64,000 nt of DNA, from the sequence record PQ567651.1. One strand, written 5' to 3'. Below, in pieces: positions 45,209 to 58,766 of this stretch. This stretch comes from Escherichia phage cardinal. The notes under the pieces were generated by a model, which was given only the letters and a program-made list of their open reading frames with translations, did not search any database and had not been told where the DNA came from. Numbering within the stretch: position 1 is the stretch's first letter; the number at the start of each line of letters is the position of its first letter. The position numbers and the translations under genes are program-made.

Positions 45209-45211
45209 ATA

Positions 45212-45664: not shown

Positions 45665-45674
45665 TACACAAATC

Positions 45675-45852: not shown

Positions 45853-45866
45853 CTTCTTTTCCTCTT

Positions 45867-46082: not shown

Positions 46083-46083
46083 G

Positions 46084-46542: not shown

Positions 46543-47000
46543 TTACACCTCTCATTAGTAGTTTGTTATGCGCGATATTGCATATTTTATGGAACACAGT
46601 GTACAGACATTTCTATTCAATGCAAGCATTATTTGCATCTTATAAATTTACGTCTCATGCCACACATCATACAGCGTCTTTTCATCTATTACAAGAACAG
46701 CAACCTAGGAACATCATTAATGGAGGGATTAGTATAGGGATTAGTATAGGATTTCCCTATCAATTATTCTATATATACCTAATATTTTTAACACACCCCT
46801 TTGTACATAATATAGACAAATAAATATCTATGCCACAAAAATTTTCTGGTATACCCGATTTATTTCGACACACCCCCTTTTCATAAGCGTAAAGTCAATA
46901 ATATCAATAACTTGCCGCAAAATACTGCTCGCTTGCGAGAGGTGCTTAACGCGATTTTCAGCGCCCCCCCGATTTCTGCCGACCGTCCCCCTCAAATATC

Positions 47001-47037
47001 AATGAGAATAATTATCATTTGCATTATCATTCAATGA
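47001..47037. promoter_or_regulatory. Fur-box-like AT palindrome cluster
   Basis: aatgagaataattatcatttgcattatcattcaatga. Confidence 0.35.
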
Positions 47038-47198
47038 CTTATAAGACTTTTGATTATTTTCTGAGCAAGAAAGGTACTACTCACAACAAAACAGATAAAT
47101 TCTAAGTAAATCAATGGCTTGGCAAGTCTAAACATCTATATACACCTTGCCAAATGAAATGATCTGGCGTGAAATAGTGCCACCCGTGGAAGATAGCT

Positions 47199-47219
47199 GA
47201 TAATGATTATCATTTGCAT
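47199..47219. promoter_or_regulatory. Fur-box-like palindrome
   Basis: gataatgattatcatttgcat vs Fur box GATAATGATAATCATTATC. Confidence 0.4.
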
Positions 47220-47451
47220 ACTTTCTGTACTATAAAACCGACTAAAAATCAAGATAATTCTGATTTATTGCGCTTTTAAGAGAGTAGGCTCAACAAATAA
47301 CAACAAATGAGGTATGTTATAGGGGCAATAGTATGAAAAATCATCTATTCAGATGTAAATAATTTTGCGCAATAGTGGTAATATTTTTCTTGACAAGAAA
47401 GATTTCTTTGTGTGCACATAGCGCCCCTGGAGGGTGGCGCATTATGATCAT

Positions 47452-47505
47452 CAGTGTCATTATTCATTTCAGTGTCATTATTCATTTCAGTGTCATTATT
47501 CACCA
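47452..47505. repeat. 3 tandem copies of 18-bp unit cagtgtcattattcattt
   Basis: perfect copies 1-2, third diverges at end. Confidence 0.8.
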
Positions 47506-48120
47506 TGTTTATTATTGCATAGCTTATTATATGGAGCTTATATTATAGCCAATGTTCTAAACATTAGCTAATAATAACGCACCGCAACAATGTAAGGGAT
47601 ACAATATACCATGTATATTGTTGCGCTTGCAATTGTTGCAAGCTACATAAGCACAAATAATAACTATCGGTGATGGTTATTATGTGGGGTGTGTAGTTGC
47701 GTTATTATTAGCCGCCTATGTGTCCGGCATAGGCTGCTAATGATACGCTTGCGAATTATATTTCTTGTTATAGTTATTGTATGGAATGATTACTACATGA
47801 AATGGTTACTGTATGAAATGATTATCTAAGTAATAGATAGGAAGGTAAAGATTAGATCATAAATAGATAGGATGTGAATTATTTAGTAATGTTACTAACA
47901 ATTTAATAGTTACTTTGTGCAACAATTCGATAGATTATAATTGTAGTTTTAAGGGTTAGATAGATTATATTTAGCTTAGTAATGATTTATATTAGTTATT
48001 ATTGTTTAATACAATGTTATCAATGAGATAGTAACAGTAAGTTATAAATAAAGGTGAGATAATTAGTTTTAATTTAGTTAGATAACTTATTATTTTATAG
48101 GTTAGATGGTCTTAAGTTAA

Positions 48121-48196
48121 GAATGATTCTCATTATTGCATTATGCAATTTATTGCATAAATAATCAGCTATAAATAAGAATGATTATCATTTAAG
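48121..48196. promoter_or_regulatory. Fur-box-like palindromes
   Basis: gaatgattctcattattgcattatgcaat...aagaatgattatcatttaag. Confidence 0.35.
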
Positions 48197-48406
48197 AGGA
48201 AAGACAAGAAAAAGGCTGTTTTTGCCAGGTAATTACATGAAGAAATTAAAAATAAGCGGTCTAAAACACGTTGTAAGCGCCTTATGATCTTCATGGTATG
48301 GTTGTTCATCTGCTCCTTGATTAGCTCGATACCGCGATCTATTCACTTTTTTCGGTGAACGTTTTTGATAGGTAAAAGCTATCATCTTTATTTAGGTAAA
48401 AAGAAA

Positions 48407-48423
48407 GGGCGCAATAAGCGCCC
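48407..48423 (-). terminator. terminator hairpin gggcgc-aataa-gcgccc at end of minus block
   Basis: minus strand reads hairpin then TTTCTTTTT; same hairpin (opposite orientation) at 52283. Confidence 0.6.
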
Positions 48424-48439
48424 TTGTTTGAAATGTTAT

Positions 48440-48811
48440 TTACTGATAAGCTGGATCGTTTGTTATATCAATCCAATGAGATAAATTAATTTTATTTTTT
48501 GCTTTCATTTTCTCGATCAAACGTTCGGCTAATGTTTCTGAACGAATATAAACATGCTCGCTAAAATCTTGCCCCGTTTCTTCGTCGATCATTTCTCTAT
48601 ATTCAACCTTGCCGATAAACGCATAAGTTTTACCCGTGTACCAGTTATGTAAATGGATCTCGCATTTATAATCATCGCTATACCCTTCGGTTGTTCTAAC
48701 TTCAACCAAGTCACCTTTAAACACTGATAAGCACCACATAGGATCACGATCTACAGCGCCGTTAAAATCTTTACCGTTTACAGTAGCCGCCAGGTTGATG
48801 ATATTGCTCAT
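48440..48811 (-). CDS. hypothetical protein
   Basis: track ORF. Confidence 0.5.
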   Translation of the reverse strand: MSNIINLAATVNGKDFNGAVDRDPMWCLSVFKGDLVEVRTTEGYSDDYKCEIHLHNWYTGKTYAFIGKVEYREMIDEETGQDFSEHVYIRSETLAERLIEKMKAKNKINLSHWIDITNDPAYQ

Positions 48812-48886
48812 GGTGATTCCTCGTTTACCGTTTAAAATGATTTGCCCTACACGATAACTATAAGTTAACAGAGGCTATAAAGCAAG

Positions 48887-49117
48887 TTATTTTTCAAAAA
48901 ATTTTTCTACTGTGATATTCTTCCCAGTGGGATTAGCTACTTTCAAAATTTTATCATGTACTGGACGCCCAAAAGAATAAGATCCGTATACAGTAAACCA
49001 ATAATCACCGTCAGGCTGTACTATCACCGCTGCATAGGGTACGCCTTTTTCGTTATTGCTGACAGAATAGATCACATTGCCGTTAATAGCTTCAGCGCGT
49101 TTAATTTGTTCGATCAT
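48887..49117 (-). CDS. hypothetical protein
   Basis: track ORF. Confidence 0.5.
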   Translation of the reverse strand: MIEQIKRAEAINGNVIYSVSNNEKGVPYAAVIVQPDGDYWFTVYGSYSFGRPVHDKILKVANPTGKNITVEKFFEK

Positions 49118-49136
49118 GATATGATTCCTATATTGA

Positions 49137-49196
49137 GCGGGAAACCACTTCCCGCCTTACGTGATACATCTTAGTATAAGGGCGATCCGGTGTCAA
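49137..49196 (-). promoter_or_regulatory. promoter + stem-loop cassette (PeSL-like)
   Basis: minus: TTGACA-17-TAAGAT-GTATCAC..GGCGGGAAGTGGTTTCCCGC. Confidence 0.55.
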
Positions 49197-49324
49197 TAGG
49201 TAGAATTGTAAAGATTTGATAGTTTATTTCTTTGATGTTTTGTTATTTGATAGGTGGAAGCTATCAATATATAATAAGATCGTCCGGTGATTATCTTCCC
49301 CTGCTCCCAGGTGCCGCCCGTTCA

Positions 49325-49365
49325 ATAAGCATAACAAAAAACAGGACAAAAACAAGCCCTGTTTT
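49325..49365 (-). terminator. rho-independent terminator after 49373..49576
   Basis: minus: ACAGG-loop-CCTGT followed by TTTTTTGTT. Confidence 0.5.
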
Positions 49366-49372
49366 GTAAAGA

Positions 49373-49576
49373 TTAGATGATCTGCATATCCTCCACGATA
49401 ATTTCTAATTTCCAAACAAGATGATCTAAGCTCCCTGATAAAAATGATTCCGATACATAACCGCCATCTGACACCGTAGCAAGGATCTCGCCATTTGCTT
49501 GCTCTTTGATTTGAACATCCAGGCGGTTAGCCTTTGCTTTATTCAGGACGGCGATCAGGCGGTTAGCTGTAGTCAT
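49373..49576 (-). CDS. hypothetical protein
   Basis: track ORF. Confidence 0.5.
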   Translation of the reverse strand: MTTANRLIAVLNKAKANRLDVQIKEQANGEILATVSDGGYVSESFLSGSLDHLVWKLEIIVEDMQII

Positions 49577-49598
49577 GGTGTTTTCCTTCCAGTTGTGA

Positions 49599-49654
49599 GC
49601 GGCACTATTGCCGCCCTACGAAATACATTCTACCCGATTTATAATTGTTGTCAA
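49599..49654 (-). promoter_or_regulatory. promoter + stem-loop cassette (PeSL-like)
   Basis: minus: TTGACA-16-TAGAAT...GGCGGCAATAGTGCCGC. Confidence 0.5.
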
Positions 49655-49655
49655 A

Positions 49656-49925
49656 CTATTTTTTCAAGCTCGACCAGTCAAAACACGGGGCGATCTCGTT
49701 AAAACTTGTACCATGTAAAGCACATAATTTTTTAGCAATAGCCGCCGTAACCTGGCGTTGTACGCGCGGATCTGCTACTGATTGGAGAAAATAGGCGGTT
49801 TTATATGTGATCATGCTTTCGCCTGTTTCCTTGTTAACGTGGTGCACGGTTTTAGCCTTATCATCTTTTACCAGGGTGTAACCGGATTCGATGGCCTTGA
49901 TTGCAACGTCCAAAGATATTTTCAT
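49656..49925 (-). CDS. hypothetical protein
   Basis: track ORF. Confidence 0.5.
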   Translation of the reverse strand: MKISLDVAIKAIESGYTLVKDDKAKTVHHVNKETGESMITYKTAYFLQSVADPRVQRQVTAAIAKKLCALHGTSFNEIAPCFDWSSLKK

Positions 49926-49945
49926 GATTTACCTCTTTATTGACG

Positions 49946-49965
49946 GCGGGGAATACTCCCCCGCC
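49946..49965 (-). promoter_or_regulatory. leader stem-loop ggcgggg/ccccgcc
   Basis: GC hairpin of cassette family upstream of 49656..49925; no clear -35. Confidence 0.4.
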
Positions 49966-49972
49966 TTATTAA

Positions 49973-50143
49973 TTACTCTTCATCGTCGCCGTTATAGTAT
50001 TCAATGCCGTTTTCATCGGTTACAGTAATGTTAACGCCACCGATAGCAACACGATCACGGGCAAACGTCATGGCTTCATTTAAATCTTCAGACCAAAAAA
50101 TATTGTGACCTTTGCGCGATACATAAAACATAGTTGGGATCAT
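49973..50143 (-). CDS. small hypothetical protein
   Basis: 57 aa ORF filling gap between cassettes. Confidence 0.35.
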   Translation of the reverse strand: MIPTMFYVSRKGHNIFWSEDLNEAMTFARDRVAIGGVNITVTDENGIEYYNGDDEE

Positions 50144-50165
50144 GATTTGTTTCTCTTCTGTTGTG

Positions 50166-50226
50166 AGCGGGAAACCATTTCCCGCCCTATGTGATAAACT
50201 TTACTACGTTGTTTGCCTAGTGTCAA
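50166..50226 (-). promoter_or_regulatory. promoter + stem-loop cassette (PeSL-like)
   Basis: plus: gcgggaaaccatttcccgccctatgtgata...tgtcaa. Confidence 0.5.
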
Positions 50227-50227
50227 A

Positions 50228-50512
50228 TTATTTTTTAATGTTTTGCCCTACAAAATTGATCACTTCCTTAAGCTGTTTCTCAGTCATGATCGTGCCTGGT
50301 AATTCTTCTTTGATTTCTTCCGGTAGATAGATATTACCGCGCCAGGTTAATAAACAACCGTTTTGATCTTCGCAGATAGAATAAGAGAAGATCCACTCAT
50401 TATCATTCTCAAGCTCCCAAAAGCACAAAAAATCTTCTTTCCCTAAATTTTCAACGGTTAAACATAATCCGCGACGTGCTGCATAGTTGGAAAGTGCTTT
50501 TGTGATCTTCAT
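50228..50512 (-). CDS. hypothetical protein
   Basis: track ORF. Confidence 0.5.
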   Translation of the reverse strand: MKITKALSNYAARRGLCLTVENLGKEDFLCFWELENDNEWIFSYSICEDQNGCLLTWRGNIYLPEEIKEELPGTIMTEKQLKEVINFVGQNIKK

Positions 50513-50531
50513 AGCTTATCTCTTCTGTTAA

Positions 50532-50594
50532 GGCGGGGAAACCATTTCCCCGCTCTATGAGATACAATATACTATCTGTTAGGTGTGCTGTCAA
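50532..50594 (-). promoter_or_regulatory. promoter + stem-loop cassette (PeSL-like)
   Basis: plus: ggcggggaaaccatttccccgc...tgtcaa. Confidence 0.5.
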
Positions 50595-50918
50595 TCAATA
50601 ATCTTTAAGATTTTCTACATTTACAAAAGTGCGTTTATTTTCTAAGTTTTCGCCGTACCATTGCCCCATGTTGATTTCTGCGGTGCGCAACCAGGACATG
50701 CCGCGCTCTATCTTTTTACTTGCAATCTCGATCCGGCTTTTGCATAGTGCTTTCGCTTGCAATGTAAAAACACTATTGCCCTGTAATGCTTCCAGGTCAT
50801 CATGTGCAAGGCGATACTCTTTAAAGCCTGATTCTATCATTTCAATAGCATCAAGTAAACGCGCGCGATGATAGAAAAAATCAGAGTTATCCAAATAAAC
50901 ACCGATCACAGATTTCAT
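50595..50918 (-). CDS. hypothetical protein
   Basis: track ORF, internal ATG start. Confidence 0.45.
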   Translation of the reverse strand: MKSVIGVYLDNSDFFYHRARLLDAIEMIESGFKEYRLAHDDLEALQGNSVFTLQAKALCKSRIEIASKKIERGMSWLRTAEINMGQWYGENLENKRTFVNVENLKDY

Positions 50919-51247
50919 AATTTTACCCTTTTGTTTGCGGCCTTTGCCGTTTTCAAGATATAGTTTAAAGCATAACAAAAAATTGTCAAGCCTTTAAAGC
51001 GTACAACTATAAAACCTATTAAAACACAATGTATAACAACATGGCTATAGTAGCAATACAACATAAAGCCATGCTTGTTTTCCTTCCTTCCTCGTATGCT
51101 GGATTTATTACGCTATATTGTACGGGAATAATTTTCATGCTGTTTCCTTAATGTCTTAAAACGTGGTTTACAATAGAAACAAGCATACAGAAGAAAAAAG
51201 ATCCTGTCAATAAGATACCGAAAAATAAATGTAAATAGGGCATGGTT

Positions 51248-51550
51248 TTACTCCTTAAAAAAATCATTGACAATTAAACTGATAACGCCCAGCACCAGAT
51301 CACCAGGTAGTGCCGCGCTTTCGTTGTTGCTTGTTTGCACTTCCTCACTAGTACCAGCACGATAGATTGCATGGTAAGCAATAGTATAATAACCTTTCGT
51401 TATTTCTTTAAGATTAATGATTAGCACGTTATTTGTTTCATCTTGAAACAATTTAGCGGTGATAGTATTGTTTTCTTTTACACTATCGACTTTTATTGAT
51501 GGATCATTTACACCAGAAAAAAGAAAAAACGTTTTAGCTATGCCGTTCAT
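51248..51550 (-). CDS. hypothetical protein
   Basis: track ORF. Confidence 0.5.
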   Translation of the reverse strand: MNGIAKTFFLFSGVNDPSIKVDSVKENNTITAKLFQDETNNVLIINLKEITKGYYTIAYHAIYRAGTSEEVQTSNNESAALPGDLVLGVISLIVNDFFKE

Positions 51551-51597
51551 GTAGTTCTCCTTTGTTGTGTGTATCTTATAACGTGCTTTCTATGTTG

Positions 51598-51999
51598 TCA
51601 ATCTTTTATCTCGGTGCATTTTGCCAGGGTATACGTTGCAAGTGCTGACACTAGTTTTTCATTGCTACGATCTGCGGCTGTACTGTGTACTTTTTGAATA
51701 CTTTTTAACCACGGCGTAAAATTTTGAGTAGTCAGCACACTGGTAATAATTTCACATGGCACATCTTCATTTAAGCCGTTAACAATAGATTTATCTATTT
51801 TTGCCGTTAGTTGTGTAACAGCACCATAAGCGATCATGTGTGAATCCTCCATGATTTCATCGGGGATCGCATTATTAATAAGCATGACGTTTTCCATTGC
51901 ATCAACGGCGCTTAATTCTGCTACTGTGGAGGATATCGCCGCGCTAGATGTTCCAACCATGCCAAAAGAGATTAAACCAGCGATCAATAATTTTTTCAT
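51598..51999 (-). CDS. secreted protein with signal peptide
   Basis: MKKLLIAGLISFGMVGTSSAA signal-peptide-like. Confidence 0.5.
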   Translation of the reverse strand: MKKLLIAGLISFGMVGTSSAAISSTVAELSAVDAMENVMLINNAIPDEIMEDSHMIAYGAVTQLTAKIDKSIVNGLNEDVPCEIITSVLTTQNFTPWLKSIQKVHSTAADRSNEKLVSALATYTLAKCTEIKD

Positions 52000-52007
52000 T
52001 TCTTGCC

Positions 52008-52190
52008 TCATATATGTTTTATTGAGATTATATTGTCACTATATACAACGTTTTTCAACGTGTCAATAAAAATCTTATTGCCTTCAATCCCCAGGATCAC
52101 GCCGCTAGTTATGAAGCCATATTGATCACGATATCGGGCGCATAACCTTTGCCCCTGGGCTAGTGCCTTGCTTATTTCGTCTAATTTCAT
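52008..52190 (-). CDS. hypothetical protein
   Basis: track ORF. Confidence 0.45.
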   Translation of the reverse strand: MKLDEISKALAQGQRLCARYRDQYGFITSGVILGIEGNKIFIDTLKNVVYSDNIISIKHI

Positions 52191-52282
52191 TTTTAAAGCT
52201 CCTGTAAAGCCGTCTAACGTTGATTTATAGGCTTATCCTGGCGTTACCATTGCCTATGGGTAACAAGCCTCTATATAAGCTA

Positions 52283-52310
52283 AAAGGGCGCTTATTGCGC
52301 CCTTTTTTGT
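52283..52310. terminator. bidirectional terminator hairpin gggcgc-ttatt-gcgccc
   Basis: aaaagggcgcttattgcgcccttttttg. Confidence 0.55.
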
Positions 52311-52447
52311 TATTCGTTCCAGTATCTTTTTGTGCTGCGATCTCTTTTTGTTTTGTTCCGCTTGTCGCCTTTTTTGGTGATCTCTTCGTTCCAATTTTTA
52401 CGCGCCTTGCTGCGGTTGAATTTTTCGATCTGCTGTGATGCGTTCAT
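52310..52447 (-). CDS. small basic protein
   Basis: 45 aa ORF with AAGAGGAAG RBS. Confidence 0.3.
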   Translation of the reverse strand: MNASQQIEKFNRSKARKNWNEEITKKGDKRNKTKRDRSTKRYWNE

Positions 52448-52462
52448 GTTTCTTCCTCTTAA

Positions 52463-52822
52463 TTACGCCACGTTATGCTGTTTTGCCAGGATTACGATCA
52501 TGCTTGCAATATATAACCAATAATTTTCCCGCTCACGGGTAACGGTTGTTTCTTTGCTTGTTTCTTTTATGTACTTCCATTCAATTAACAAGTGATCGAT
52601 CTCGTTATAATCAAAAGCAATATTGATTTCTGACGGTAAACCTTGTAACCAGGAGGCTATCGCCTTGATCATGTTGTGATTGTAACGTTTTTGATTATCG
52701 GGATACCAGTATTCAGATGTAAAACGGCGCATCAGTTCGGTGATCTTTTCTTTTTCTGTTGTAGTACCCTCAAAAGAAATAGCCGACACAATGTAAGTTT
52801 TAATTGCTTTTACTGATTTCAT
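52463..52822 (-). CDS. hypothetical protein
   Basis: track ORF. Confidence 0.5.
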   Translation of the reverse strand: MKSVKAIKTYIVSAISFEGTTTEKEKITELMRRFTSEYWYPDNQKRYNHNMIKAIASWLQGLPSEINIAFDYNEIDHLLIEWKYIKETSKETTVTRERENYWLYIASMIVILAKQHNVA

Positions 52823-52842
52823 AATCTTATCTCTTTATTGTT

Positions 52843-52901
52843 GGCGGGAAACCATTCCCCGCCGTTGTTGTTACTTTACTTATAAATGATGCTACTGTCA
52901 A
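52843..52901 (-). promoter_or_regulatory. promoter + stem-loop cassette (PeSL-like)
   Basis: plus: ggcgggaaaccattccccgcc...tgtcaa. Confidence 0.5.
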
Positions 52902-52908
52902 ACGGATA

Positions 52909-53079
52909 TTATTTGTTTTTTAACGTTAATGTTCCCAGCTTATCAGCGTGACGCAGACCAGGAAAGATCCATTTTCCTGATTCATCTTTTACCGGGGCTT
53001 TAAGCGTAGCGCCCAGGTTGGCGGCATTAACTTTACGTGCAACGTTGCGAGCGGCTTCACGGGTAGCGAAAGTGATCAT
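52909..53079 (-). CDS. small hypothetical protein
   Basis: 56 aa ORF with GAAGAGGAAA RBS. Confidence 0.35.
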   Translation of the reverse strand: MITFATREAARNVARKVNAANLGATLKAPVKDESGKWIFPGLRHADKLGTLTLKNK

Positions 53080-53103
53080 GATGTTTTCCTCTTCTCTTTG
53101 TTA

Positions 53104-53188
53104 GGCGGTGGGCTATTCCACCGCCTTGATGAATACAGTTTACTTTATTTTTGCAGTATTGCAAGCGGTTTTATGAAATAAATGTCAA
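53104..53188 (-). promoter_or_regulatory. stem-loop + TTGACA element (cassette variant)
   Basis: plus: ggcggtgggctattccaccgcc...tgtcaa. Confidence 0.4.
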
Positions 53189-53386
53189 AGTAAAATCATA
53201 ATCTTTTGACAGTTTATATTGCACCTTGTTACCGTATATGTCACCTTTACGTAAAGATCCGCGAATACCTATTACATCCTTTACATCTTTAAGATTTTTC
53301 ACGCCTGTAATGTCTTTATTGAAATGATCGTGATCAGAAAATAAAACCTGCTTTGCATTTTTTAACAGTGTGCGGATATTAGCCAT
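53171..53386 (-). CDS. hypothetical protein
   Basis: track ORF. Confidence 0.5.
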   Translation of the reverse strand: MANIRTLLKNAKQVLFSDHDHFNKDITGVKNLKDVKDVIGIRGSLRKGDIYGNKVQYKLSKDYDFTLTFIS

Positions 53387-53407
53387 TTGATAATCTCTCT
53401 TACTAGG

Positions 53408-53464
53408 GGCGGCACTATTGCCGCCCTATGCATTACATTTTACTGATTTTAGTTATCTTGTCAA
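53408..53464 (-). promoter_or_regulatory. promoter + stem-loop cassette (PeSL-like)
   Basis: plus: ggcggcactattgccgcc...tgtcaa. Confidence 0.5.
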
Positions 53465-53472
53465 TATTATTT

Positions 53473-53700
53473 TTAGTTTAATTGATCCAGGCACAACAAG
53501 CGATCAACATTCAGATCGGTTAGGCTAATCGTTGGCACCTGGTAGGATTCGATGTACTCAACGCTCGACCATTGCCCGAAGTTAGCGACCGCCCAGCTAT
53601 TCAAGGAAGAGTGAAGATCATCCCCTTTCTTCTCGGTGATAACTGCTACTACCTGGGAGCTTCCAACCGTACCGGATACGCGAACAATAACGATAGCCAT
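53473..53700 (-). CDS. hypothetical protein
   Basis: track ORF. Confidence 0.5.
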   Translation of the reverse strand: MAIVIVRVSGTVGSSQVVAVITEKKGDDLHSSLNSWAVANFGQWSSVEYIESYQVPTISLTDLNVDRLLCLDQLN

Positions 53701-53722
53701 AATGATAACCTTTCTTTGATTT

Positions 53723-53782
53723 GGCGGGAAACCATTTCCCGCCCTATGTGATATATCTTACACTAATTTAAAACGTTGTCAA
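53723..53782 (-). promoter_or_regulatory. promoter + stem-loop cassette (PeSL-like)
   Basis: plus: ggcgggaaaccatttcccgccctatgtgatatatctta...tgtcaa. Confidence 0.55.
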
Positions 53783-53877
53783 ATTATTTTCTATTTCTTC
53801 CGTAATAGCCCAATTTATGATCTAAGCTAAAACGTTTTGTGAGATAGGTCGAACGATGTTTCATTTTTATGTCTCCT

Positions 53878-54117
53878 TTACATTCCAACCATAGCGGCAC
53901 GGATCGCGGTTTTACTGAACTTGAATCCGTCTGGCGTTTTATCTTGATCCATACTTTCAAGAAATAACATCATATCCCGCGCTGCGTCATTCTTATTGGT
54001 GTTAGCTGCGATAAATTCACGCGCAAGATTATAAAAACCTTCATCGTTGTTGATCCAAAGGCTTACATTCCAATGAGTTTTGTTTTTGTGACCTAAGAAC
54101 ATTTTAGATTTAGCCAT
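53878..54117 (-). CDS. hypothetical protein
   Basis: track ORF. Confidence 0.5.
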   Translation of the reverse strand: MAKSKMFLGHKNKTHWNVSLWINNDEGFYNLAREFIAANTNKNDAARDMMLFLESMDQDKTPDGFKFSKTAIRAAMVGM

Positions 54118-54141
54118 GATGTTAATCTCTTTTTCAGTGAG

Positions 54142-54199
54142 GCGGGAACTATTCCCGCTCTCGATATAAGTATTATATGCTTTTTATTCGTGCTGTCAA
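54142..54199 (-). promoter_or_regulatory. promoter + stem-loop cassette (PeSL-like)
   Basis: plus: gcgggaactattcccgc...tgtcaa. Confidence 0.5.
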
Positions 54200-54205
54200 T
54201 GCTTT

Positions 54206-54571
54206 TTATAAATCTTTTTTACGTTTAACATCGCTTGCATGACTGTATACAGCGATCCCATTATCACGGCAAAAACGGGAAAGATACGCGCCGCGTGAAA
54301 ACTCTTTGCCCTCCAGGTTGATAACCTTGCTAAACTCTTCCAGGGCGACGGTATCAAAATGATCCCCATAACCATATTGAAACGGAACGTTAACGACTTC
54401 AATCAGTTTACCGCCGATCTCAACGTCAACCATCAAAGAGAAATAAGTATTACCATAAGACTTTTGAAACCAGCGACGGGCGCTAATATGTACCGCTTCA
54501 ATGCTGGATAGTTCAATTTTAGCAGTGTTAGCCAGGGTAGCATAAGCAGAAACATTGATATTTTTAGCCAT
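54206..54571 (-). CDS. hypothetical protein
   Basis: track ORF; preferred over overlapping 54196..54402. Confidence 0.5.
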   Translation of the reverse strand: MAKNINVSAYATLANTAKIELSSIEAVHISARRWFQKSYGNTYFSLMVDVEIGGKLIEVVNVPFQYGYGDHFDTVALEEFSKVINLEGKEFSRGAYLSRFCRDNGIAVYSHASDVKRKKDL

Positions 54572-54666
54572 AGTCTTTAATCTCTTTTGATTAGTTAGGA
54601 GTATTCCCGATAAAAGTTATTATGCTTGTACTATCGTTCGTTGTCAATAGCACAAGACTAAAACTT

Positions 54667-54848
54667 TTAACGATAATCATCATAGGCTTTATTGACCTGG
54701 CGAATATAGCATTCAAAAGCTAGATCAATAGATTTATATTCACGGATATAATCACCATAGGAAACCACATACATTTCTATAGCTTCCTCATATGCCAGGA
54801 TGATAGAATCTAAACCTACGATCTCAGTCTTTGCAATAATAGCCATGC
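54667..54848 (-). CDS. small hypothetical protein
   Basis: 59 aa ORF with TAAGGAA RBS. Confidence 0.35.
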
Positions 54849-54932
54849 TTTTATTCCTTAGTAATGTTTCAATCTATATAAGCATTATAGCTTACTGATT
54901 TCAGGTGTCAAGTGATTTTTTATTTCACCTTA

Positions 54933-54989
54933 TGGGGCGTTGCCCCGCTTTATGTGGTACATATTACGGGGCTTGTTCGCATATGTCAA
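54933..54989 (-). promoter_or_regulatory. stem-loop + TTGACA element (cassette variant)
   Basis: plus: ggggcgttgccccgc...tgtcaa. Confidence 0.4.
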
Positions 54990-54992
54990 GCC

Positions 54993-55547
54993 TTACACAA
55001 GACAATTTTCATAATTTTTTAGGGCTTGTCTTTTTTCCTCTTCCGTCGGCATGTATGGCTGGATCTCTTCCTCTTCCAGGGTAGGCATGATTTCTTCCTC
55101 TTCCTCCTGGTCGTCCTGGTCTTCCTCTTGCGCTACTGCAACAAGTTTATTGATCTTCTCCTGGGCTTTAATCAATTTTGCATCTAGCACCATTTTAGCG
55201 GTGTTGTATACCGTCCATGCCATGCGTTTTTCTTCGTATGCTTTATCTAGTGCGGCTAATTTAGCGGGATACTCTTCCAACACCTTAAAAGCCGGATCAA
55301 TGCTGTATAAGGGATTATTTTTAGCGTCATCGCTTGGATCTGCGGCGCTTGCAATGTCAGCGTTGCCATTCGCCAGCCATCCAGGGCGAACGGATCGCGC
55401 CTTTGTGTTGCCGTTGCTCTTTGCCGCTCGATTTCCTATCTGCTCCCCGCTATACCCTACCATGTGATCGATCATGTCATCTGGTATTATGCGCGGATCA
55501 TTAGCGTCATGCTTTACCCAGGACTGGATCACATATTCACGCCCCAT
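54993..55547 (-). CDS. hypothetical protein with acidic C-terminus
   Basis: track ORF. Confidence 0.5.
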   Translation of the reverse strand: MGREYVIQSWVKHDANDPRIIPDDMIDHMVGYSGEQIGNRAAKSNGNTKARSVRPGWLANGNADIASAADPSDDAKNNPLYSIDPAFKVLEEYPAKLAALDKAYEEKRMAWTVYNTAKMVLDAKLIKAQEKINKLVAVAQEEDQDDQEEEEEIMPTLEEEEIQPYMPTEEEKRQALKNYENCLV

Positions 55548-55809
55548 GTTCGTTCGCCTCTTCTGTTAGTAGTTTACATACCTTAAACATGCTTGCCGCG
55601 TCTTTTGACGGTAGCCAGCCTATGCGATACACTCCAGGATCTGGATTCGTTATATCTGTTAATTGAGCGTTACGATGATTAAAAATAGTGTAACCGCCGC
55701 CAGCACGGGGATAAACATTATCTTTAAACCTGATAGCGTATCTCGCCAGGTTGAACGTTGTAGCATGTTCAAAAGCGATCACATTATCAAAAACTTTTAG
55801 AAAAAACAA
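55537..55809 (-). CDS. hypothetical protein
   Basis: track ORF. Confidence 0.5.
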   Translation of the reverse strand: MFFLKVFDNVIAFEHATTFNLARYAIRFKDNVYPRAGGGYTIFNHRNAQLTDITNPDPGVYRIGWLPSKDAASMFKVCKLLTEEANEHGA

Positions 55810-55810
55810 G

Positions 55811-55957
55811 ATTATCCTCCCCAGCGTTTAAAGCCCGTTGCACGGTTATTTTTTAACTCTCGTTTTAGTCTCTTGCAACGGTTTACAAGTGCAAACCGTG
55901 CCGGAGTGGTAACAGTAGCGCCGTTTTTGGTGTGAATACTCATTACATATTGTTTCA
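55811..55957 (-). CDS. small basic protein
   Basis: 48 aa ORF with AGGA RBS. Confidence 0.3.
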
Positions 55958-55976
55958 TAAAGTTTTATCCTATGTA

Positions 55977-56030
55977 AGCGGGAACTATTCCCGCTTTAAG
56001 ATAGCTTATCAGGTTTTAGTGCAATGTCAA
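55977..56030 (-). promoter_or_regulatory. promoter + stem-loop cassette (PeSL-like)
   Basis: plus: gcgggaactattcccgctttaagatagc...tgtcaa. Confidence 0.5.
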
Positions 56031-56036
56031 CCGTTT

Positions 56037-56399
56037 TTATTCGTAAATTTTACCGCTTTCTACCCATACCATAACGCGGCGCATATTATCCCATGCATCT
56101 TGTCGCAGATTTAAGGCATGCAATTCTTCGGTTGTGCTCATACCTGGTACGGGCTTGCTATATGTTACAAAGAGATCGCCAGCATATTCATAAGCCAGGG
56201 TAAGATCACATTGAATCATCTTTTTAAGCATAGCATTAAGCATCATATTAGCGGCATGTTGATCACGTTTTAGCGGTAGCGTTGCGATCTGTGAGCGATA
56301 GCTTTCGATCCGTGCATCCACTGCATCACGTGGAAGATTTTTCACGTCGTCGCGGAAAGATACCAGGTTTAACATGATAGTATTGATTTGCTTGCTCAT
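56037..56399 (-). CDS. hypothetical protein
   Basis: track ORF. Confidence 0.5.
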   Translation of the reverse strand: MSKQINTIMLNLVSFRDDVKNLPRDAVDARIESYRSQIATLPLKRDQHAANMMLNAMLKKMIQCDLTLAYEYAGDLFVTYSKPVPGMSTTEELHALNLRQDAWDNMRRVMVWVESGKIYE

Positions 56400-56424
56400 T
56401 GTGTTACCCTTTCTTTGATGGCCT

Positions 56425-56484
56425 GGCGGGAAACCATTTCCCGCCCTATGTGATACATCTTATCAGATTAAAAAACGTTGTCAA
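56425..56484 (-). promoter_or_regulatory. promoter + stem-loop cassette (PeSL-like), best consensus copy
   Basis: minus: TTGACA-16-TAAGAT-GTATCACATAG-GGCGGGAAATGGTTTCCCGCC, about 25 nt before ATG. Confidence 0.6.
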
Positions 56485-56503
56485 GAATATTTTTTAGATA
56501 ATT

Positions 56504-56785
56504 TTAACTATATGATCCACATTGTTCGCAGTAGTGATCATCGTCGCCATCAGCTACCTGGCTGATAAAGTGATCTACTTTTGCTTTTAGGTTATTATAA
56601 TTGTTTTCTACTTCCTTTAATCGCTCCTGATAGTAGCCCAGGGCTTTAATATACGCCGCCTCTTCTGTTTTTTCACGCATGGCTAAATTCATGCCGCGCG
56701 TATCATCATACAGCCAAAAGCCATCGGTACATTCACTCATTGAAAGGGTAGGGCTTAACTCTTTATGATTAATTACCTTGCTCAT
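56504..56785 (-). CDS. hypothetical protein
   Basis: track ORF, internal ATG start; C-terminal CEQCG. Confidence 0.45.
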   Translation of the reverse strand: MSKVINHKELSPTLSMSECTDGFWLYDDTRGMNLAMREKTEEAAYIKALGYYQERLKEVENNYNNLKAKVDHFISQVADGDDDHYCEQCGSYS

Positions 56786-56796
56786 AGTGTGCGCCT

Positions 56797-56901
56797 TATA
56801 GAATGATTGAAACAACAATTGCTACAGTGATCCACACTGGAACGGCTAACAAAATAGCGTTAATCGTTCCAACCGTCAAGCTGTTTTCTTTCTTGATCAT
56901 C
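56797..56901 (-). CDS. small membrane peptide
   Basis: 34 aa hydrophobic ORF with AAAAGG RBS. Confidence 0.3.
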
Positions 56902-57169
56902 GTTATCAACCTTTTATAAGTAATGTTATTGTGACGGTGGATTGTGGAGATCCTCACCTTTGCCCGTCCTGCATTGCGCCCTCCTTTTGTTTATTGTCGT
57001 TGTGCCTCGCCCCCCTCGACAAGATGAATAATACGCTACCAGGTGAGGAACGTCAACCCCTTTTTTAATCTTTTTTTCATTTCTTTTTTTTGCTTGCTAT
57101 CTATAAAGGAAAGGGCTATTATCTTTCTACCACGCCAACCAGGGCGCACATCAAAGAAAGGGCGATACC

Positions 57170-57436
57170 ATGACAAATACTACTTTACACCTCATGCACT
57201 CATTAGGCTGGCAAGGCGGCACGGTGCACCAGGTAGCAAGCGCAACGGGCTTAAAGGTTGAAACCGTTCTCAACCTGGGCGATCATAAGGTGGAAGAAAT
57301 AGATCATTTTGATACGTTCGCAAATGGTTATCTATGGGCTTGCAGTGGCGGCGGGGAAAGCAAGATCCCACCAGGGGCGCGGGGTGATATATATTTTTGG
57401 TTAGGTGTCCTATCCTGGCAAGAAAACAAAAAATAA
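57170..57436 (+). CDS. hypothetical protein
   Basis: track ORF. Confidence 0.5.
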   Translation: MTNTTLHLMHSLGWQGGTVHQVASATGLKVETVLNLGDHKVEEIDHFDTFANGYLWACSGGGESKIPPGARGDIYFWLGVLSWQENKK

Positions 57437-57438
57437 TA

Positions 57439-57467
57439 TTGACAAGCCCAGGGATCGGGCTTATACT
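57439..57467 (+). promoter_or_regulatory. sigma70-like promoter TTGACA-17-TATACT with palindromic spacer
   Basis: TTGACAagcccagggatcgggctTATACT. Confidence 0.5.
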
Positions 57468-57586
57468 GTTTTACATACAGAAGAGGAAGCGCCACCCCCA
57501 CGGCGTAAAGGCGGGGCTAACATACCAGGGCACTACTGGTTGGAAGGTTGATCGCTGGTACAACGTATTTACAAAGGAGGTTAGCA

Positions 57587-58180
57587 ATGAAAAAAGTTTT
57601 TGGAGTAGGCATTAACGATAGTGCAAAGCCGATCAAAGGTTGTCGATTCTATGCAACATGGCGCAACATGTTACAACGTTGTTATAGTGAATCATATCAG
57701 GACAAAAGGCCATCTTATAAAGGTTGTAGTGTTTGTGATGAATGGTTGACGTTTAGCACTTTTCGTGCTTGGATGGAACAGCAGGATCACCAGGGAAAAC
57801 AATTAGATAAAGATATAATAACACCGGGTAATAAACTCTATTGTCCTGATCGTTGCGTATTTGTAACGCAAGAAATGAATAGTTTGTTAACAGTTACAAA
57901 GAGTAACAAAGGGGATCATCCTTTGGGTGTTTCATTTTTGAATCATAAACCATTGCCGCGCCCTTATTTAGCAACAATACGTTATAATAACGTAGTGGAA
58001 AGATTAGGGTACTATGTAGATCCTTTATCCGCTCATTTGGCCTGGAATAGGCGCAAACGTGAAATAATCATAGAGATTATTAGTAATGAAACGGATTCAA
58101 GGATCGCCGCTGGCTTGGCTTTACGTGTTGACGCTCTCGATCTGGCTTATGAAAATAAAGCGGAAATAACTTGCTTATGA
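57587..58180 (+). CDS. putative homing-endonuclease-like DNA-binding protein
   Basis: ATG after AAGGAGG; N-terminal FYATWRNMLQRCYSESY...GCSVCDEW motif and AP2-like GVSF...RLGYY segment. Confidence 0.4.
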   Translation: MKKVFGVGINDSAKPIKGCRFYATWRNMLQRCYSESYQDKRPSYKGCSVCDEWLTFSTFRAWMEQQDHQGKQLDKDIITPGNKLYCPDRCVFVTQEMNSLLTVTKSNKGDHPLGVSFLNHKPLPRPYLATIRYNNVVERLGYYVDPLSAHLAWNRRKREIIIEIISNETDSRIAAGLALRVDALDLAYENKAEITCL

Positions 58181-58183
58181 CGC

Positions 58184-58212
58184 TTGACAAGCGCCCGACA
58201 AGGGCGCATAAT
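58184..58212 (+). promoter_or_regulatory. TTGACA + palindrome + CATAAT element at start of non-coding region
   Basis: cTTGACAagcgcccgacaagggcgCATAATc. Confidence 0.4.
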
Positions 58213-58436
58213 CTCTTACATAGACAGGAACGCCTACCAATGGCGCTAAACTTGGTGATGATAGCCGCAGGGCATCGACAGCTATAATCGCCGGTAGCTC
58301 GTCTAAAATAAATTTGTAAAGAAATGTAAAGATAAAAATAATCGCTTGCTTTTGTTGTTGGTTATGCTATTCTTATTGTATGGCGAGGGGACACGGGAGC
58401 GCGAGACAAACACCGCCCCTGCGCGTTATTTTCTAA

Positions 58437-58546
58437 ATGAGAAAATTCTCATTTGCTAATGATTCTCATTCTCTTACTGAGAATGATTATCACTTACATA
58501 ATTAAATGATAATGATTCTCATTTACAAATGAGAATGATTATCATA
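58437..58546. promoter_or_regulatory. cluster of Fur-box-like palindromes
   Basis: repeated aatgattctcatt / gagaatgattatcat units. Confidence 0.4.
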
Positions 58547-58569
58547 CGCATACCTATAAAAACACGAAA

Positions 58570-58766
58570 TTGAACTTTTCATTTTTGATTTTTCTACGGA
58601 AAAAGGCAAAAAAACTTTAAATAAACTGGGGAATTTTTAAAAAATTGAAGTTTTCATTTTCAAAATCTGGATAGAAATACGTACAAAAACTTTAAATAAT
58701 TTTGACCAAACTTGAACTTTTCATTTTCAAAATTTGTACCCAAAAATCTGTAAAAACTTTAAATAA
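58570..58766. repeat. 3 direct repeats of ~55-bp unit TTGAACttttcattttcaaaat...aaaaactttaaataa
   Basis: three similar units at about 70-bp period. Confidence 0.7.

What the first reader, a model, noticed from the sequence alone, without database searches (positions are those of the whole stretch)
48830..56490. Array of promoter-plus-stem-loop cassettes, one per small gene
Upstream of most small minus-strand genes is a TTGACA -35 box; I counted about 17 tgtcaa sites on the plus strand. About a dozen are followed by TAAGAT-GTATCAC and a conserved GC stem-loop of the form GGCGGGAAATGGTTTCCCGCC, about 25 nt before the start codon, and at least two genes end in their own terminator. This resembles the promoter-early-stem-loop elements described in hyperplastic regions of T4-type phages, where they are thought to drive modular gene shuffling.
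Basis: partly seen in the sequence, partly recalled or inferred. Interest (0 to 1): 0.65.

Follow-up and report, generated by a model that had tools for sequence, protein, structure and literature searches.

The report
Early-gene promoter-plus-hairpin cassette array
A phi92-like E. coli phage has about 25 tiny early genes of unknown function in one 8-kb stretch, and most have their own strong host-type promoter followed by a GC hairpin transcribed at the start of the mRNA; the cassette resembles the "PeSL" elements of T4-like phages but is built differently, and related phages differ exactly at its boundaries.

Summary
On the minus strand of 49115-56484 there are 18 TTGACA boxes and 17 promoter matches of at least 10/12 (shuffles: 2.0). 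Eleven full cassettes have the layout -35, -10, 9-13 nt, GC hairpin, 17-25 nt with a purine-rich ribosome-binding site (RBS), ATG. There are also three partial copies and three true terminators.

The window is a Justusliebigvirus (phi92-like), not a T4-type phage. A covariance model finds the hairpin family only in this array, within both the window and a complete relative's genome.

The hairpin keeps pairing through compensatory changes (98% paired). It shows G-U rather than A-C mismatches on the sense strand, has no U-tract, and always lies wholly downstream of the -10. It is therefore transcribed into the 5' UTR. This differs from RB49 PeSLs, whose hairpins straddle the -10 or sit in the spacer.

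The same geometry occurs in Phapecoctavirus, Vequintavirus and the jumbo phage PBECO4, with different stems. Homology breakpoints among 11 relatives fall in cassettes (25 of 41 clusters; 20% expected).

Best reading: self-contained early expression cassettes whose 5'-proximal hairpin stabilises or insulates the mRNA, and whose conserved sequence supports modular gene exchange. The hairpin's function is inferred, not shown. This is a new variant of a known kind, of moderate interest.

The parts
56397..56484 (-). Full cassette. -35 TTGACA 56479-56484; -10 TAAGAT 56457-56462; hairpin GGCGGGAAATGGTTTCCCGCC 56425-56445; ATG 56399 (120-aa protein of unknown function).
   Evidence: covariance-model hit 47.1 bits
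55956..56030 (-). Full cassette. -35 56025-56030; -10 TAAGCT 56003-56008; hairpin AAGCGGGAATAGTTCCCGCTT 55976-55996; ATG 55958.
   Evidence: covariance-model hit 18.4 bits
54920..54989 (-). Upstream tandem promoter (TTGACA-17-TAATAT) with a short hairpin GCGGGGCAACGCCCC at 54933-54947. It lies ahead of the next promoter.
54844..54911 (-). Promoter-only cassette (TTGACA-16-TATAAT, 12/12) with no hairpin. ATG 54846.
54569..54647 (-). Promoter-only cassette (TTGACA-17-CATAAT, 11/12). ATG 54571.
54115..54199 (-). Full cassette. -35 54194-54199; -10 TATAAT 54172-54177; hairpin GCGGGAATAGTTCCCGC 54142-54158; ATG 54117 (DUF7249 protein). The module from 53878 to 54184 is shared at 79% identity with jumbo phage PBECO4.
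53698..53782 (-). Full cassette. -35 53777-53782; -10 TAAGAT 53755-53760; hairpin 53723-53743; ATG 53700.
   Evidence: covariance-model hit 50.8 bits
53384..53464 (-). Full cassette. -10 TAAAAT 53437-53442; hairpin GGGCGGCAATAGTGCCGCCC 53407-53426; ATG 53386.
53077..53164 (-). Full cassette with a weaker promoter (TTGCAA-16-TAAACT). Hairpin AGGCGGTGGAATAGCCCACCGCCT 53103-53126; ATG 53079.
52820..52901 (-). Full cassette. -10 TAAAGT 52873-52878; hairpin GGCGGGGAATGGTTTCCCGCC 52843-52863 (contains a G-U pair); ATG 52822.
   Evidence: covariance-model hit 40.3 bits
52282..52306 (-). True intrinsic terminator (AAAAGGGCGCAATAAGCGCCCTTTT) after gene 52310-52447. It is bidirectional in form.
51548..51601 (-). 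Promoter-only cassette (TTGACA-17-TAAGAT). ATG 51550. It lies inside a hairpin-free island (51019-52190) that encodes a signal-peptide protein and two tiny hydrophobic proteins.
50916..50989 (-). Degenerate cassette. TTGACA-16-TAAACT followed by only a 4-bp hairpin, CGGCAAAGGCCG, at 50938-50949. ATG 50918.
50510..50594 (-). Full cassette. -10 TATATT 50566-50571; hairpin GCGGGGAAATGGTTTCCCCGC 50533-50553; ATG 50512.
   Evidence: covariance-model hit 25.3 bits
50141..50226 (-). Full cassette. -10 TAAAGT 50198-50203; hairpin GGGCGGGAAATGGTTTCCCGCTC 50165-50187; ATG 50143.
   Evidence: covariance-model hit 50.5 bits
49923..49965 (-). Hairpin without a promoter: GGCGGGGGAGTATTCCCCGCC at 49945-49965, 7 nt after the upstream stop codon (49973-49975). 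ATG 49925.
   Evidence: covariance-model hit 36.5 bits
49574..49654 (-). Full cassette. -10 TAGAAT 49627-49632; hairpin GGGCGGCAATAGTGCCGCTC 49597-49616; ATG 49576. In ESCO9, Paula and Nernie the same cassette drives a different gene, with the breakpoint exactly at the ATG.
49338..49365 (-). True intrinsic terminator after gene 49373-49576. It is a recurrent homology breakpoint (49351) in four relatives.
49115..49196 (-). Full cassette. -10 TAAGAT 49168-49173; hairpin GGCGGGAAGTGGTTTCCCGCT 49136-49156 (two G-U pairs); ATG 49117.
   Evidence: covariance-model hit 45 bits
48405..48425 (-). True intrinsic terminator that closes the array, after gene 48440-48811 (phi92 gp248 homologue).

Best explanation
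The region is the immediate-early gene array of a phi92-like myovirus (phi92 gp225-gp248, near the right genome end). About 25 small genes of unknown function are expressed from a series of self-contained cassettes.

Cassette layout: an A-rich upstream tract; a perfect TTGACA -35; a 16-17-nt spacer; a TAnnnT -10; about 10-12 nt that contain the start site (...CACATAG); a 7-10-bp GC hairpin with a 3-6-nt loop; and about 20 nt of A/G-rich leader with the RBS.

Shown by sequence:
- The hairpin lies entirely downstream of the -10.
- It is kept as a structure by compensatory changes.
- It lacks a U-tract.
- It leaves the RBS unpaired.

Inferred:
- Host sigma70 RNA polymerase starts about 7 nt after the -10, so every early mRNA begins with about 3-6 free nucleotides followed by the hairpin.
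- The hairpin limits access of RppH and RNase E to the 5' end.
- In read-through transcripts it acts as an intercistronic barrier and folding insulator. Each short mRNA is then stable and translated independently of its neighbours.
- Because about 85-95 nt of near-identical sequence precedes unrelated genes, homologous recombination between cassettes deletes, inserts or swaps single-gene modules. This happens within the genus and between phage subfamilies.
For: Non-randomness and restriction to one array:
- See for the counts against shuffles.
- Covariance model R1 gives significant hits only on the minus strand at 49131-56453 in the window, and only at 38072-47226 in the 145-kb ESCO9 genome.

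Structure rather than sequence:
- Among 50 distinct copies, 98.2% of cells are paired. Four of 9 pairs change on both sides, in 25 cells. No shuffle out of 500 reached the observed pairing or covariation, and slid controls gave 47-62% pairing.
- Stems differ between classes (GGCGGGAAA/TTTCCCGCC, GGCGGCA/TGCCGCC, GGTGGGGAA/TTCCCCACT, GGGGC/GCCCC...). The spacing between half-sites varies.

Sense-strand RNA:
- 25 G-U against 6 A-C/C-A cells.

Not a terminator:
- There are 0-2 T in the 8 nt after each stem, whereas the three real terminators of the array have T-runs.

Coupling to the start site:
- The -10-to-stem distance peaks at 10-11 nt, with sd 1.4.
- The stem-to-ATG distance has sd 2.8.
- The first distance holds in four genera, while the second ranges 19-31 nt in Vequintavirus.

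Folding:
- The hairpin dominates the minimum-free-energy fold of each 44-51-nt leader (dG -14 to -19 kcal/mol), and the RBS is free.

Precedent:
- 5' secondary structures stabilise E. coli mRNAs because RppH and RNase E need single-stranded 5' ends (PMC3997798).

Shuffling:
- 25 of 41 breakpoint clusters against 11 relatives lie in cassettes, which make up 20% of the sequence (p=1e-8). Most others are within a few nt of an ATG or stop codon.
- Single-gene modules are shared at 91-95% with the rV5-like phage slur16 and at 79% with PBECO4.
Against: - No transcript data exist. The start site is predicted, and 3-6 unpaired 5' nucleotides may be enough for RppH or RNase E, so protection could be partial.
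- One hairpin (49945-49965) has no promoter.
- Five to six genes have promoters without a hairpin, so the hairpin is not obligatory.
- The alignment used for pair counts was fitted to the model and the sequences are related, which inflates pairing statistics and the G-U bias.
- Breakpoints at gene boundaries would also be enriched by selection against disrupted genes, without any special recombination at cassettes.
- PeSL authors reported that a GC stem-loop lacking an obvious U-tract reduced downstream lacZ as strongly as rrnB T1 (PMC2839356). An attenuating effect therefore cannot be excluded from sequence alone.
Confidence: 0.5

Rival explanations
1. PeSL-type composite terminator/promoter. 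The hairpin attenuates or terminates transcription coming from the upstream cassette, and the promoter re-initiates, so each gene gets a fixed dose.
For: - Same genomic context as PeSLs: genes of unknown function, a hyperplastic region, and indels at the elements.
- TransTermHP and WebGeSTer call these hairpins terminators in the ASO2A and Paula records.
- PeSL stem-loops reduced lacZ expression in vivo (PMC2839356).
- The promoter-less copy at 49945-49965 sits right after a stop codon.
Against: - The hairpin is downstream of its own promoter, so it would equally terminate the cassette's own transcript. In RB49 the arms straddle the -10 or sit in the spacer, which avoids this problem.
- No U-tract follows any of the 12 hairpins, while genuine terminators in the same array have one.
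- Paula's 'terminators' are annotated on the strand opposite to the genes.
Confidence: 0.15
2. The hairpin is a recognition tag on early mRNAs for a dedicated protein. Candidates are a phage antiterminator (nut/boxB-like), a translational repressor, or an endonuclease that shuts early messages off, giving temporal control of the whole class.
For: - Every early transcript of the class carries it at the same position.
- Loops are semi-conserved (AAUGGU/AAUAGU) in Justusliebigvirus, Phapecoctavirus and PBECO4.
- The flanking CAYRUAG is conserved.
Against: - Loop length and sequence vary (UGG, UAG, AUAG, AAUAG, GUA; AAAAA, CAACAAG and AGCUAAU in slur16), and so does stem sequence. This is more variation than a specific RNA-binding protein usually tolerates.
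- No boxA-like partner motif was noticed.
- No candidate protein was identified. All array proteins are of unknown function.
Confidence: 0.12
3. DNA-level element. The 17-24-bp palindrome centred around +15 is an operator for a dimeric phage repressor that switches early promoters off, or a cruciform that promotes recombination.
For: - Perfect palindromes sit just downstream of the start site, a position comparable to lacO (own knowledge).
- Their location coincides with recombination breakpoints.
Against: - The distance between GCGG and CCGC half-sites varies from 16 to 20 bp, and the stem sequence changes by compensatory substitutions. This conserves pairing rather than a DNA recognition sequence.
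- Mismatches are biased to G-T on the sense strand (25 vs 6). A duplex-DNA site or cruciform would not show this.
- Breakpoints are spread over the whole cassette, not centred on the palindrome.
Confidence: 0.08
4. No function of its own. The hairpin is a passenger of one ancestral promoter cassette that spread by duplication and gene conversion.
For: Some copies are nearly identical even in the promoter spacer, for example 56399 versus 53700. This indicates common descent or conversion. Some genes do without the hairpin.
Against: Unrelated stems occupy the same position in Vequintavirus and Asteriusvirus, and compensatory changes maintain pairing. Both argue for selection on the structure.
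Confidence: 0.08

Closest known systems
PeSL (promoter-early stem-loop) cassettes of T4-like phages RB49/phi1, T4/PST and KVP40/nt-1 (Arbiol 2010, PMC2839356; Comeau 2014, PMC4122927)
   Same: - A near-consensus sigma70 promoter with an AT-rich upstream tract plus a GC stem-loop, within a conserved intergenic motif of about 100 bp.
- One cassette per small gene of unknown function.
- Clustered in a plastic region.
- Indels and replacements between close relatives are bounded by the elements.
   Different: - The host genome is a phi92-like Stephanstirmvirinae phage, not a T4-like one.
- The hairpin position is fixed, 9-13 nt after the -10, so it is transcribed from its own promoter. In RB49 it mostly straddles the -10 or lies in the spacer.
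- The proposed role is therefore a 5'-UTR element rather than a terminator.
- Mini-circles were not examined.
5'-terminal stabilising hairpins of E. coli and phage mRNAs (ompA and papA 5' UTRs; T7 gene 10 leader). Review PMC3997798; the T7 example is from my own knowledge.
   Same: A stable hairpin close to the 5' end, followed by an A-rich leader and the RBS. The host is E. coli, where RppH and RNase E need single-stranded 5' ends.
   Different: - The predicted 5' overhang here is about 3-6 nt, longer than in the classical cases.
- The element is repeated at least 11 times in tandem cassettes.
- No half-life data exist.
Lambdoid nut/boxB sites
   Same: A short hairpin in the early transcript, a short distance downstream of an early promoter.
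   Different: No boxA partner was noticed. The loop and stem are not constant. There are many copies, one per gene, rather than one per operon. No N-like protein was identified.
Rho-independent terminators (as annotated for these hairpins in MZ726793 and LR865361)
   Same: A GC-rich perfect hairpin in an intergenic position.
   Different: There is no U-tract, and the hairpin lies between a promoter and the gene it serves. Three canonical terminators in the same array show what the phage's real terminators look like.

Membership tests
PeSL | Sigma70-consensus early promoter with an AT-rich tract upstream of the -35 | tested here: met
   16 of 17 cassettes have a perfect TTGACA, a 16-17-nt spacer and a TAnnnT -10. 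A-runs precede the -35. Promoter activity was not tested.
PeSL | A stable GC stem-loop inside the conserved motif | tested here: met
   Eleven full copies, with 7-10 bp stems and leader folds of dG -14 to -19 kcal/mol.
PeSL | Stem-loop placed so that it acts on upstream transcription: between -35 and -10, overlapping a hexamer, upstream of the -35, or just before the start site (five subclasses) | tested here: not met
   All copies start 9-13 nt downstream of the -10 (6 nt in one copy if flanking A-T pairs are counted), so they lie inside the cassette's own transcript. In RB49, 15 of 20 are upstream of, inside or overlapping the promoter.
PeSL | Stem-loop is an effective transcription terminator or attenuator | not testable with these tools
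   Sequence argues against this: there is no U-tract. Term-seq or a reporter assay is needed.
PeSL | Preferential location upstream of genes of unknown function in a hyperplastic region, and association with indels between close relatives | tested here: met
   Apart from two Pfam matches above cut-off to uncharacterised families (Phage_1_1, DUF7249; DUF1033 barely), all proteins are PHROGs of unknown function. 25 of 41 breakpoint clusters lie in cassettes.
PeSL | Resident in a T4-like (Straboviridae) genome | tested here: not met
   The best matches are Justusliebigvirus genomes at 95-98% identity.
PeSL | Formation of excised mini-circles by recombination between neighbouring elements | not testable with these tools
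   Requires PCR or sequencing of phage DNA.
Intrinsic (rho-independent) terminator | GC hairpin immediately followed by a U-rich tract | tested here: not met
   There are 0-2 T in the 8 nt after each of the 12 hairpins. The terminator scan picks up only 52282-52306, 49338-49365 and 48405-48425 on the gene strand.
5'-terminal mRNA-stabilising hairpin | Hairpin within a few nucleotides of the transcript 5' end | tested here: inconclusive
   The stem starts 9-13 nt after the -10. This predicts a 3-6-nt overhang if the start site is 6-8 nt after the -10. The start site is not mapped.
5'-terminal mRNA-stabilising hairpin | Structure, not sequence, is conserved, and on the RNA (sense) strand | tested here: met
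   98.2% of cells are paired, 4 of 9 pairs have double changes, and there are 25 G-U against 6 A-C cells. The alignment was fitted to the model, so these numbers lean towards the structure.
5'-terminal mRNA-stabilising hairpin | Lengthens mRNA half-life in an RppH/RNase E-dependent way | not testable with these tools
   Needs rifampicin-chase or reporter experiments.
nut/boxB antitermination site | Invariant loop recognised by an N-type peptide, with a boxA partner | tested here: not met
   Loops vary in length and sequence within and between phages. No conserved boxA-like motif appears in alignments A1 and A2.
Rfam families | Match above the gathering score | tested here: not met
   No family reaches its gathering score in 46000-58500.

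The most novel reading that the evidence does not exclude
The promoter-proximal hairpin may be a class-specific 'early-mRNA tag' shared by several unrelated groups of large coliphages: phi92-like, phAPEC8-like, rV5-like and PBECO4-like. A dedicated host or phage factor would read it. It could shield early messages from phage-stimulated RNase E, or mark them for timed shut-off or antitermination. That would make it a previously unrecognised post-transcriptional layer of the early-to-middle switch, one that also travels with each gene module when it moves between phages.
Probability: 0.15. Interest if true: 0.7.

Novelty: new variant of a known kind. Interest (0 to 1): 0.45.

Why it matters
- Early genes of unknown function in large virulent phages are a main reservoir of host-takeover and anti-defence functions. 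Knowing that each sits in a portable, self-sufficient expression cassette explains how they are exchanged between phi92-like, phAPEC8-like, rV5-like and even jumbo phages.
- It gives a simple rule for finding immediate-early genes: promoter, about 10 nt, GC hairpin, about 20 nt, ATG.
- It corrects database annotation that labels these hairpins as terminators.
- The cassette is a compact natural design (strong promoter, 5' hairpin, A-rich leader) that can be tested directly as an expression and stability module.
- The contrast with RB49 PeSLs, where the hairpin lies across the promoter rather than inside the transcript, suggests two different solutions to running many tandem promoters.

Tried and rejected
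Analyses that gave nothing:
- An Rfam scan of 46000-58500 found nothing above gathering score.
- A tRNA scan found none in the window.

Literature and annotation:
- No paper in the library mentions PeSLs or promoter-hairpin cassettes in phi92-like, rV5-like or phAPEC8-like phages.
- The rV5 paper lists 33 promoters but does not mention the hairpins.
- The phi92 genome paper could not be opened.
- The phi92 record annotates only RBSs.

Technical dead ends:
- MAFFT alignments of all stem classes (A2, A3) put the two arms out of register. I therefore built the covariance model from eight same-geometry copies (A4) and let Infernal realign the rest.
- Two run_python calls failed because loci fetched in one turn are stored together in one file.

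Interpretations considered and rejected:
- RNase III sites: the stems are too short, at 7-10 bp.
- REP elements: the sequence is different.
- Sigma70-dependent pause element: the -10-like TATCAC lies in the discriminator, not in the transcribed region.
- Terminators for antisense transcription: no T-run on the plus strand either.

Full report
**Identity of the window.** The finding's interval matches about 280 phage records. The best are Justusliebigvirus genomes (phi92-like, Stephanstirmvirinae): ESCO9 at 98% over 97% of the interval, then Paula, Nernie and VEcB. This is not a T4-type phage. In phi92 the homologous genes are gp225-gp248. They are transcribed towards the right terminal repeat, and the reference record annotates only CDSs and RBSs there. 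The phi92 right end aligns to window 48887->46947, so the array occupies the last ~10 kb of the packaged genome.

**The observation.** The minus strand carries 18 TTGACA hexamers between 49191 and 56484.
- In 48400-57000 there are 17 promoter matches of at least 10/12 on the gene strand, against 2 on the other strand. In 300 dinucleotide shuffles the mean is 2.0 and the maximum 6.
- Nine of these have a strict GC hairpin starting 7-15 nt after the -10. Shuffles give 0.007, and the other 55 kb of the window hold one such case.
- Reading each upstream region gives eleven full cassettes, one hairpin with no promoter (49945-49965), two degenerate copies and four promoter-only genes.
- Three hairpins with T-runs are ordinary terminators: 52282-52306, 49338-49365 and 48405-48425.

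One caveat is that the literal TAAGAT-GTATCAC string is found in only two or three copies. The other is that the hairpin-to-ATG distance is 17-25 nt.

**Anatomy.** Each cassette has these parts in order: A-rich tract; TTGACA; 16-17 nt; TAnnnT; 9-13 nt (often ...TCACATAG); a 7-10-bp GC stem with a 3-6-nt loop; about 20 nt of A/G-rich leader with a GAG/GGA-type RBS; ATG. The predicted leaders are 44-51 nt. Their minimum-free-energy fold is dominated by the hairpin (-14 to -19 kcal/mol), and the RBS is left unpaired. None of the 12 hairpins is followed by more than 2 T in 8 nt.

**Is the hairpin a conserved structure, and where else does it occur?**
- A covariance model built from eight same-geometry copies (A4, R1) gives significant hits only on the minus strand at 49131-56453 in the window. 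In the complete 145-kb ESCO9 genome it hits only at 38072-47226. The family is confined to this one array.
- Across the window and eleven related loci it finds 89 copies, 50 of them distinct.
- On that alignment 98.2% of cells pair, and 4 of 9 pairs change on both sides (25 cells). No shuffle out of 500 reaches the observed pairing or covariation score. Sliding the 3' arm by one or two columns drops pairing to 47-62%.
- Non-Watson-Crick cells are 25 G-U against 6 A-C/C-A. This asymmetry is expected for an RNA on the gene strand, not for duplex DNA or the antisense strand.
- These numbers lean towards the structure, because the alignment was fitted to the model and the sequences are related.
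- An independent point is that stem classes differ in sequence and in the distance between GCGG and CCGC (16-20 bp). That is hard to reconcile with a dimeric DNA-binding protein.

**Generality.** The same layout is present upstream of small early genes in three other groups:
- Phapecoctavirus tuntematon, with 15 copies.
- The rV5-like Vequintavirus slur16, with six copies whose stems are unrelated (e.g. GGGGCAAGACGTTTGCCCC, GGGGAGCTAATCCCC).
- The jumbo Asteriusvirus PBECO4, with four copies (TTGCAA-16-TATAAT followed by GGTGGGGAATAGTTCCCCACT).

Over 95 distinct cassettes the -10-to-stem distance is 10.6-12.8 nt on average in every group, with overall sd 1.4. The stem-to-ATG distance has sd 2.8 and ranges 19-31 nt in Vequintavirus. 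The hairpin is thus positioned relative to the promoter and start site more tightly than relative to the start codon.

**Comparison with true PeSLs.** PeSLs were defined in RB49/phi1 as sigma70 promoters plus stem-loops that act as terminators. The stem-loops lie mostly between the -35 and -10 or overlap the -10 (PMC2839356). The concept was later extended to T4/PST and KVP40/nt-1 (PMC4122927). I ran the same scan on 50 kb of RB49. Of 20 promoter-associated hairpins, 9 overlap a hexamer (typically with the -10 in the loop), 3 lie in the spacer, 3 lie upstream of the -35, and only 5 are scattered downstream.

In that design a transcript started at the PeSL's own promoter lacks the 5' arm, so only read-through RNA folds. 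In the present array the whole hairpin belongs to the cassette's own transcript. This is a real structural difference. It removes the logic of 'terminate upstream, restart here'.

Two plus-strand promoters just outside the array, at 57439 and 58184, do have a GC hairpin between the -35 and -10. The classical layout therefore also exists in this phage.

**Function of the hairpin (inferred).** The most economical reading is a 5'-proximal mRNA element.
- In E. coli both RppH and RNase E need single-stranded 5' ends, and 5' structures stabilise mRNAs (PMC3997798).
- The T7 gene 10 leader has the same order of parts: 5' hairpin, A-rich leader, RBS (own knowledge).
- With the start site 6-8 nt after the -10, the overhang would be 3-6 nt, so protection may be incomplete.
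- In read-through RNA the hairpins would also serve as intercistronic barriers and as insulators that keep each RBS in a constant context.

Rivals are listed with their tests. Attenuation cannot be excluded experimentally. A protein-recognised tag is possible, because loops are semi-conserved (AAUGGU/AAUAGU) in three groups. A DNA operator is unlikely.

**Modular shuffling.** I ran BLAST of 47800-57600 against eleven relatives.
- This gave 80 internal HSP ends in 41 clusters.
- 25 clusters lie in cassettes, which make up 20% of the sequence (p=1e-8). Only 9 are 'inside' a CDS (74% expected), and six of those 9 are within about 10 nt of an ATG or stop codon.
- Example 1: the cassette at 49574-49654 is 98% identical to the ESCO9/Paula cassette, but it drives a different gene there. 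Homology stops exactly at the ATG (49574) and resumes in the terminator (49351).
- Example 2: gene 53878-54117 with its cassette is shared with PBECO4 from the stop codon to the promoter spacer (53878-54184, 79% identity).
- Example 3: three single-gene modules (48891-49120, 49284-49662, 54665-54858) are 91-95% identical to slur16, although the genomes are otherwise unrelated at the DNA level.

This is the same kind of evidence as in the PeSL papers. It fits recombination within cassettes but does not prove it, because selection alone would also enrich gene-boundary junctions.

**Gene content.** Nineteen of 20 scanned proteins fall in PHROG families of unknown function. Pfam matches above cut-off are only a T7 gp1.1-like 45-aa protein (52310-52447), DUF7249 and, barely, DUF1033.

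**Prior knowledge.**
- Searches found no description of these cassettes in phi92-, phAPEC8- or rV5-like phages.
- The rV5 paper lists 33 sigma70 promoters without mentioning hairpins.
- Two GenBank records mark the hairpins as rho-independent terminators. ASO2A places each one between an annotated promoter and its gene. Paula places them on the strand opposite to the genes. The accompanying ASO2A paper only counts them.

**Verdict.** The feature is real and strongly non-random. [quoted passage not shown] The hairpin's function is inferred. Interest is moderate.

Noticed in passing
window 48001-58000: GATC is 2-2.5 times denser in the early array than elsewhere. The 2-kb bins hold 20, 16, 22, 17 and 20 sites, against 4-13 in other bins. 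In the 25 array genes there are 77 GATC against 45.2 +/- 4.1 (max 58 of 1000) after synonymous-codon shuffling. Nearly all are in frames GAT-C or xxG-ATC, and only 2 are intergenic. The same excess is seen in ESCO9 at 35-50 kb, in Phapecoctavirus arrays and in slur16, but not in PBECO4. Possible links to Dam, SeqA or MutH were not tested.
   Followed up: partly
window 48440-56785 (array genes): GGCC is almost absent from the array genes: 1 site against 10.8 +/- 2.8 expected from synonymous-codon shuffling.
   Followed up: no
window 57439-57467 and 58184-58212, + strand: [quoted passage not shown] They are TTGACA-17-TATACT (hairpin AGCCCAGGGATCGGGCT) and TTGACA-17-CATAAT (hairpin GCGCCCGACAAGGGCGC). 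The second has a GACAA loop like P22 boxB, which is probably coincidence.
   Followed up: partly
window 58430-58790: A non-coding stretch holds three copies of TGAGAATGATTATCA (Fur-box-like palindromes, at 58478-58544). Three direct repeats of about 70 nt follow at 58567-58787, each starting TTGAACTTTTCATTTT. This may be an origin or a regulatory region.
   Followed up: partly
window 46947-47290: The right end of the phi92 genome, including its 343-bp terminal repeat, aligns to window 48887->46947 at 92% identity. The window is therefore from a permuted assembly, and the physical genome terminus lies about 1.5 kb beyond the last array gene.
   Followed up: partly
window 32978-33045 (also 13594, 15804, 25119), + strand: Outside the array, consensus promoters are followed within 10-25 nt by hairpins. 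The one at 33023-33045 is terminator-type, with flanking A and T runs: TTGACA-18-TATAAT, then AAAGCCCCCCAAGCAGGGGCTTT, just before an RBS. It is unclear how such promoters escape their own terminator.
   Followed up: no
window 51019-52190: A hairpin-free island lies inside the array. It encodes a 133-aa protein with an N-terminal signal-peptide-like sequence (51598-51999; phi92 gp239 is annotated with a signal peptide) and two tiny hydrophobic ORFs (51148-51243 and 51019-51138). Their promoters lack the hairpin.
   Followed up: no
window 52310-52447: The 45-aa protein matches Pfam Phage_1_1 (T7 gene 1.1 family; E=9e-11). This is an early protein of unknown function shared with T7-like podoviruses.
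   Followed up: no
L001 (LR865361 Paula), L017 (MZ726793 ASO2A): Public records annotate the cassette hairpins as rho-independent terminators. In Paula they are on the strand opposite to the genes. In ASO2A each sits between an annotated promoter and its gene. These are likely prediction artefacts.
   Followed up: yes
search hits MG065645, MG065689, MG065650, MG065653: Records named 'Campylobacter phage' (host C. jejuni) are 84-96% identical to this coliphage region. Their sizes mostly match phi92-, phAPEC8- or rV5-like genomes (about 146-151 kb; one record is 87.5 kb). The host labels may be wrong, or the records may be contaminants.
   Followed up: no
L004 19730-19763 (ESCO9 69739-69757), + strand: One promoter-plus-hairpin of the same geometry lies outside the array: TTGACT-16-TATAGT, 12 nt, GCGGAGGATTGTCCTCCGC. 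It sits upstream of an 'integral membrane protein' gene. The covariance-model score is weak (E=0.11).
   Followed up: no
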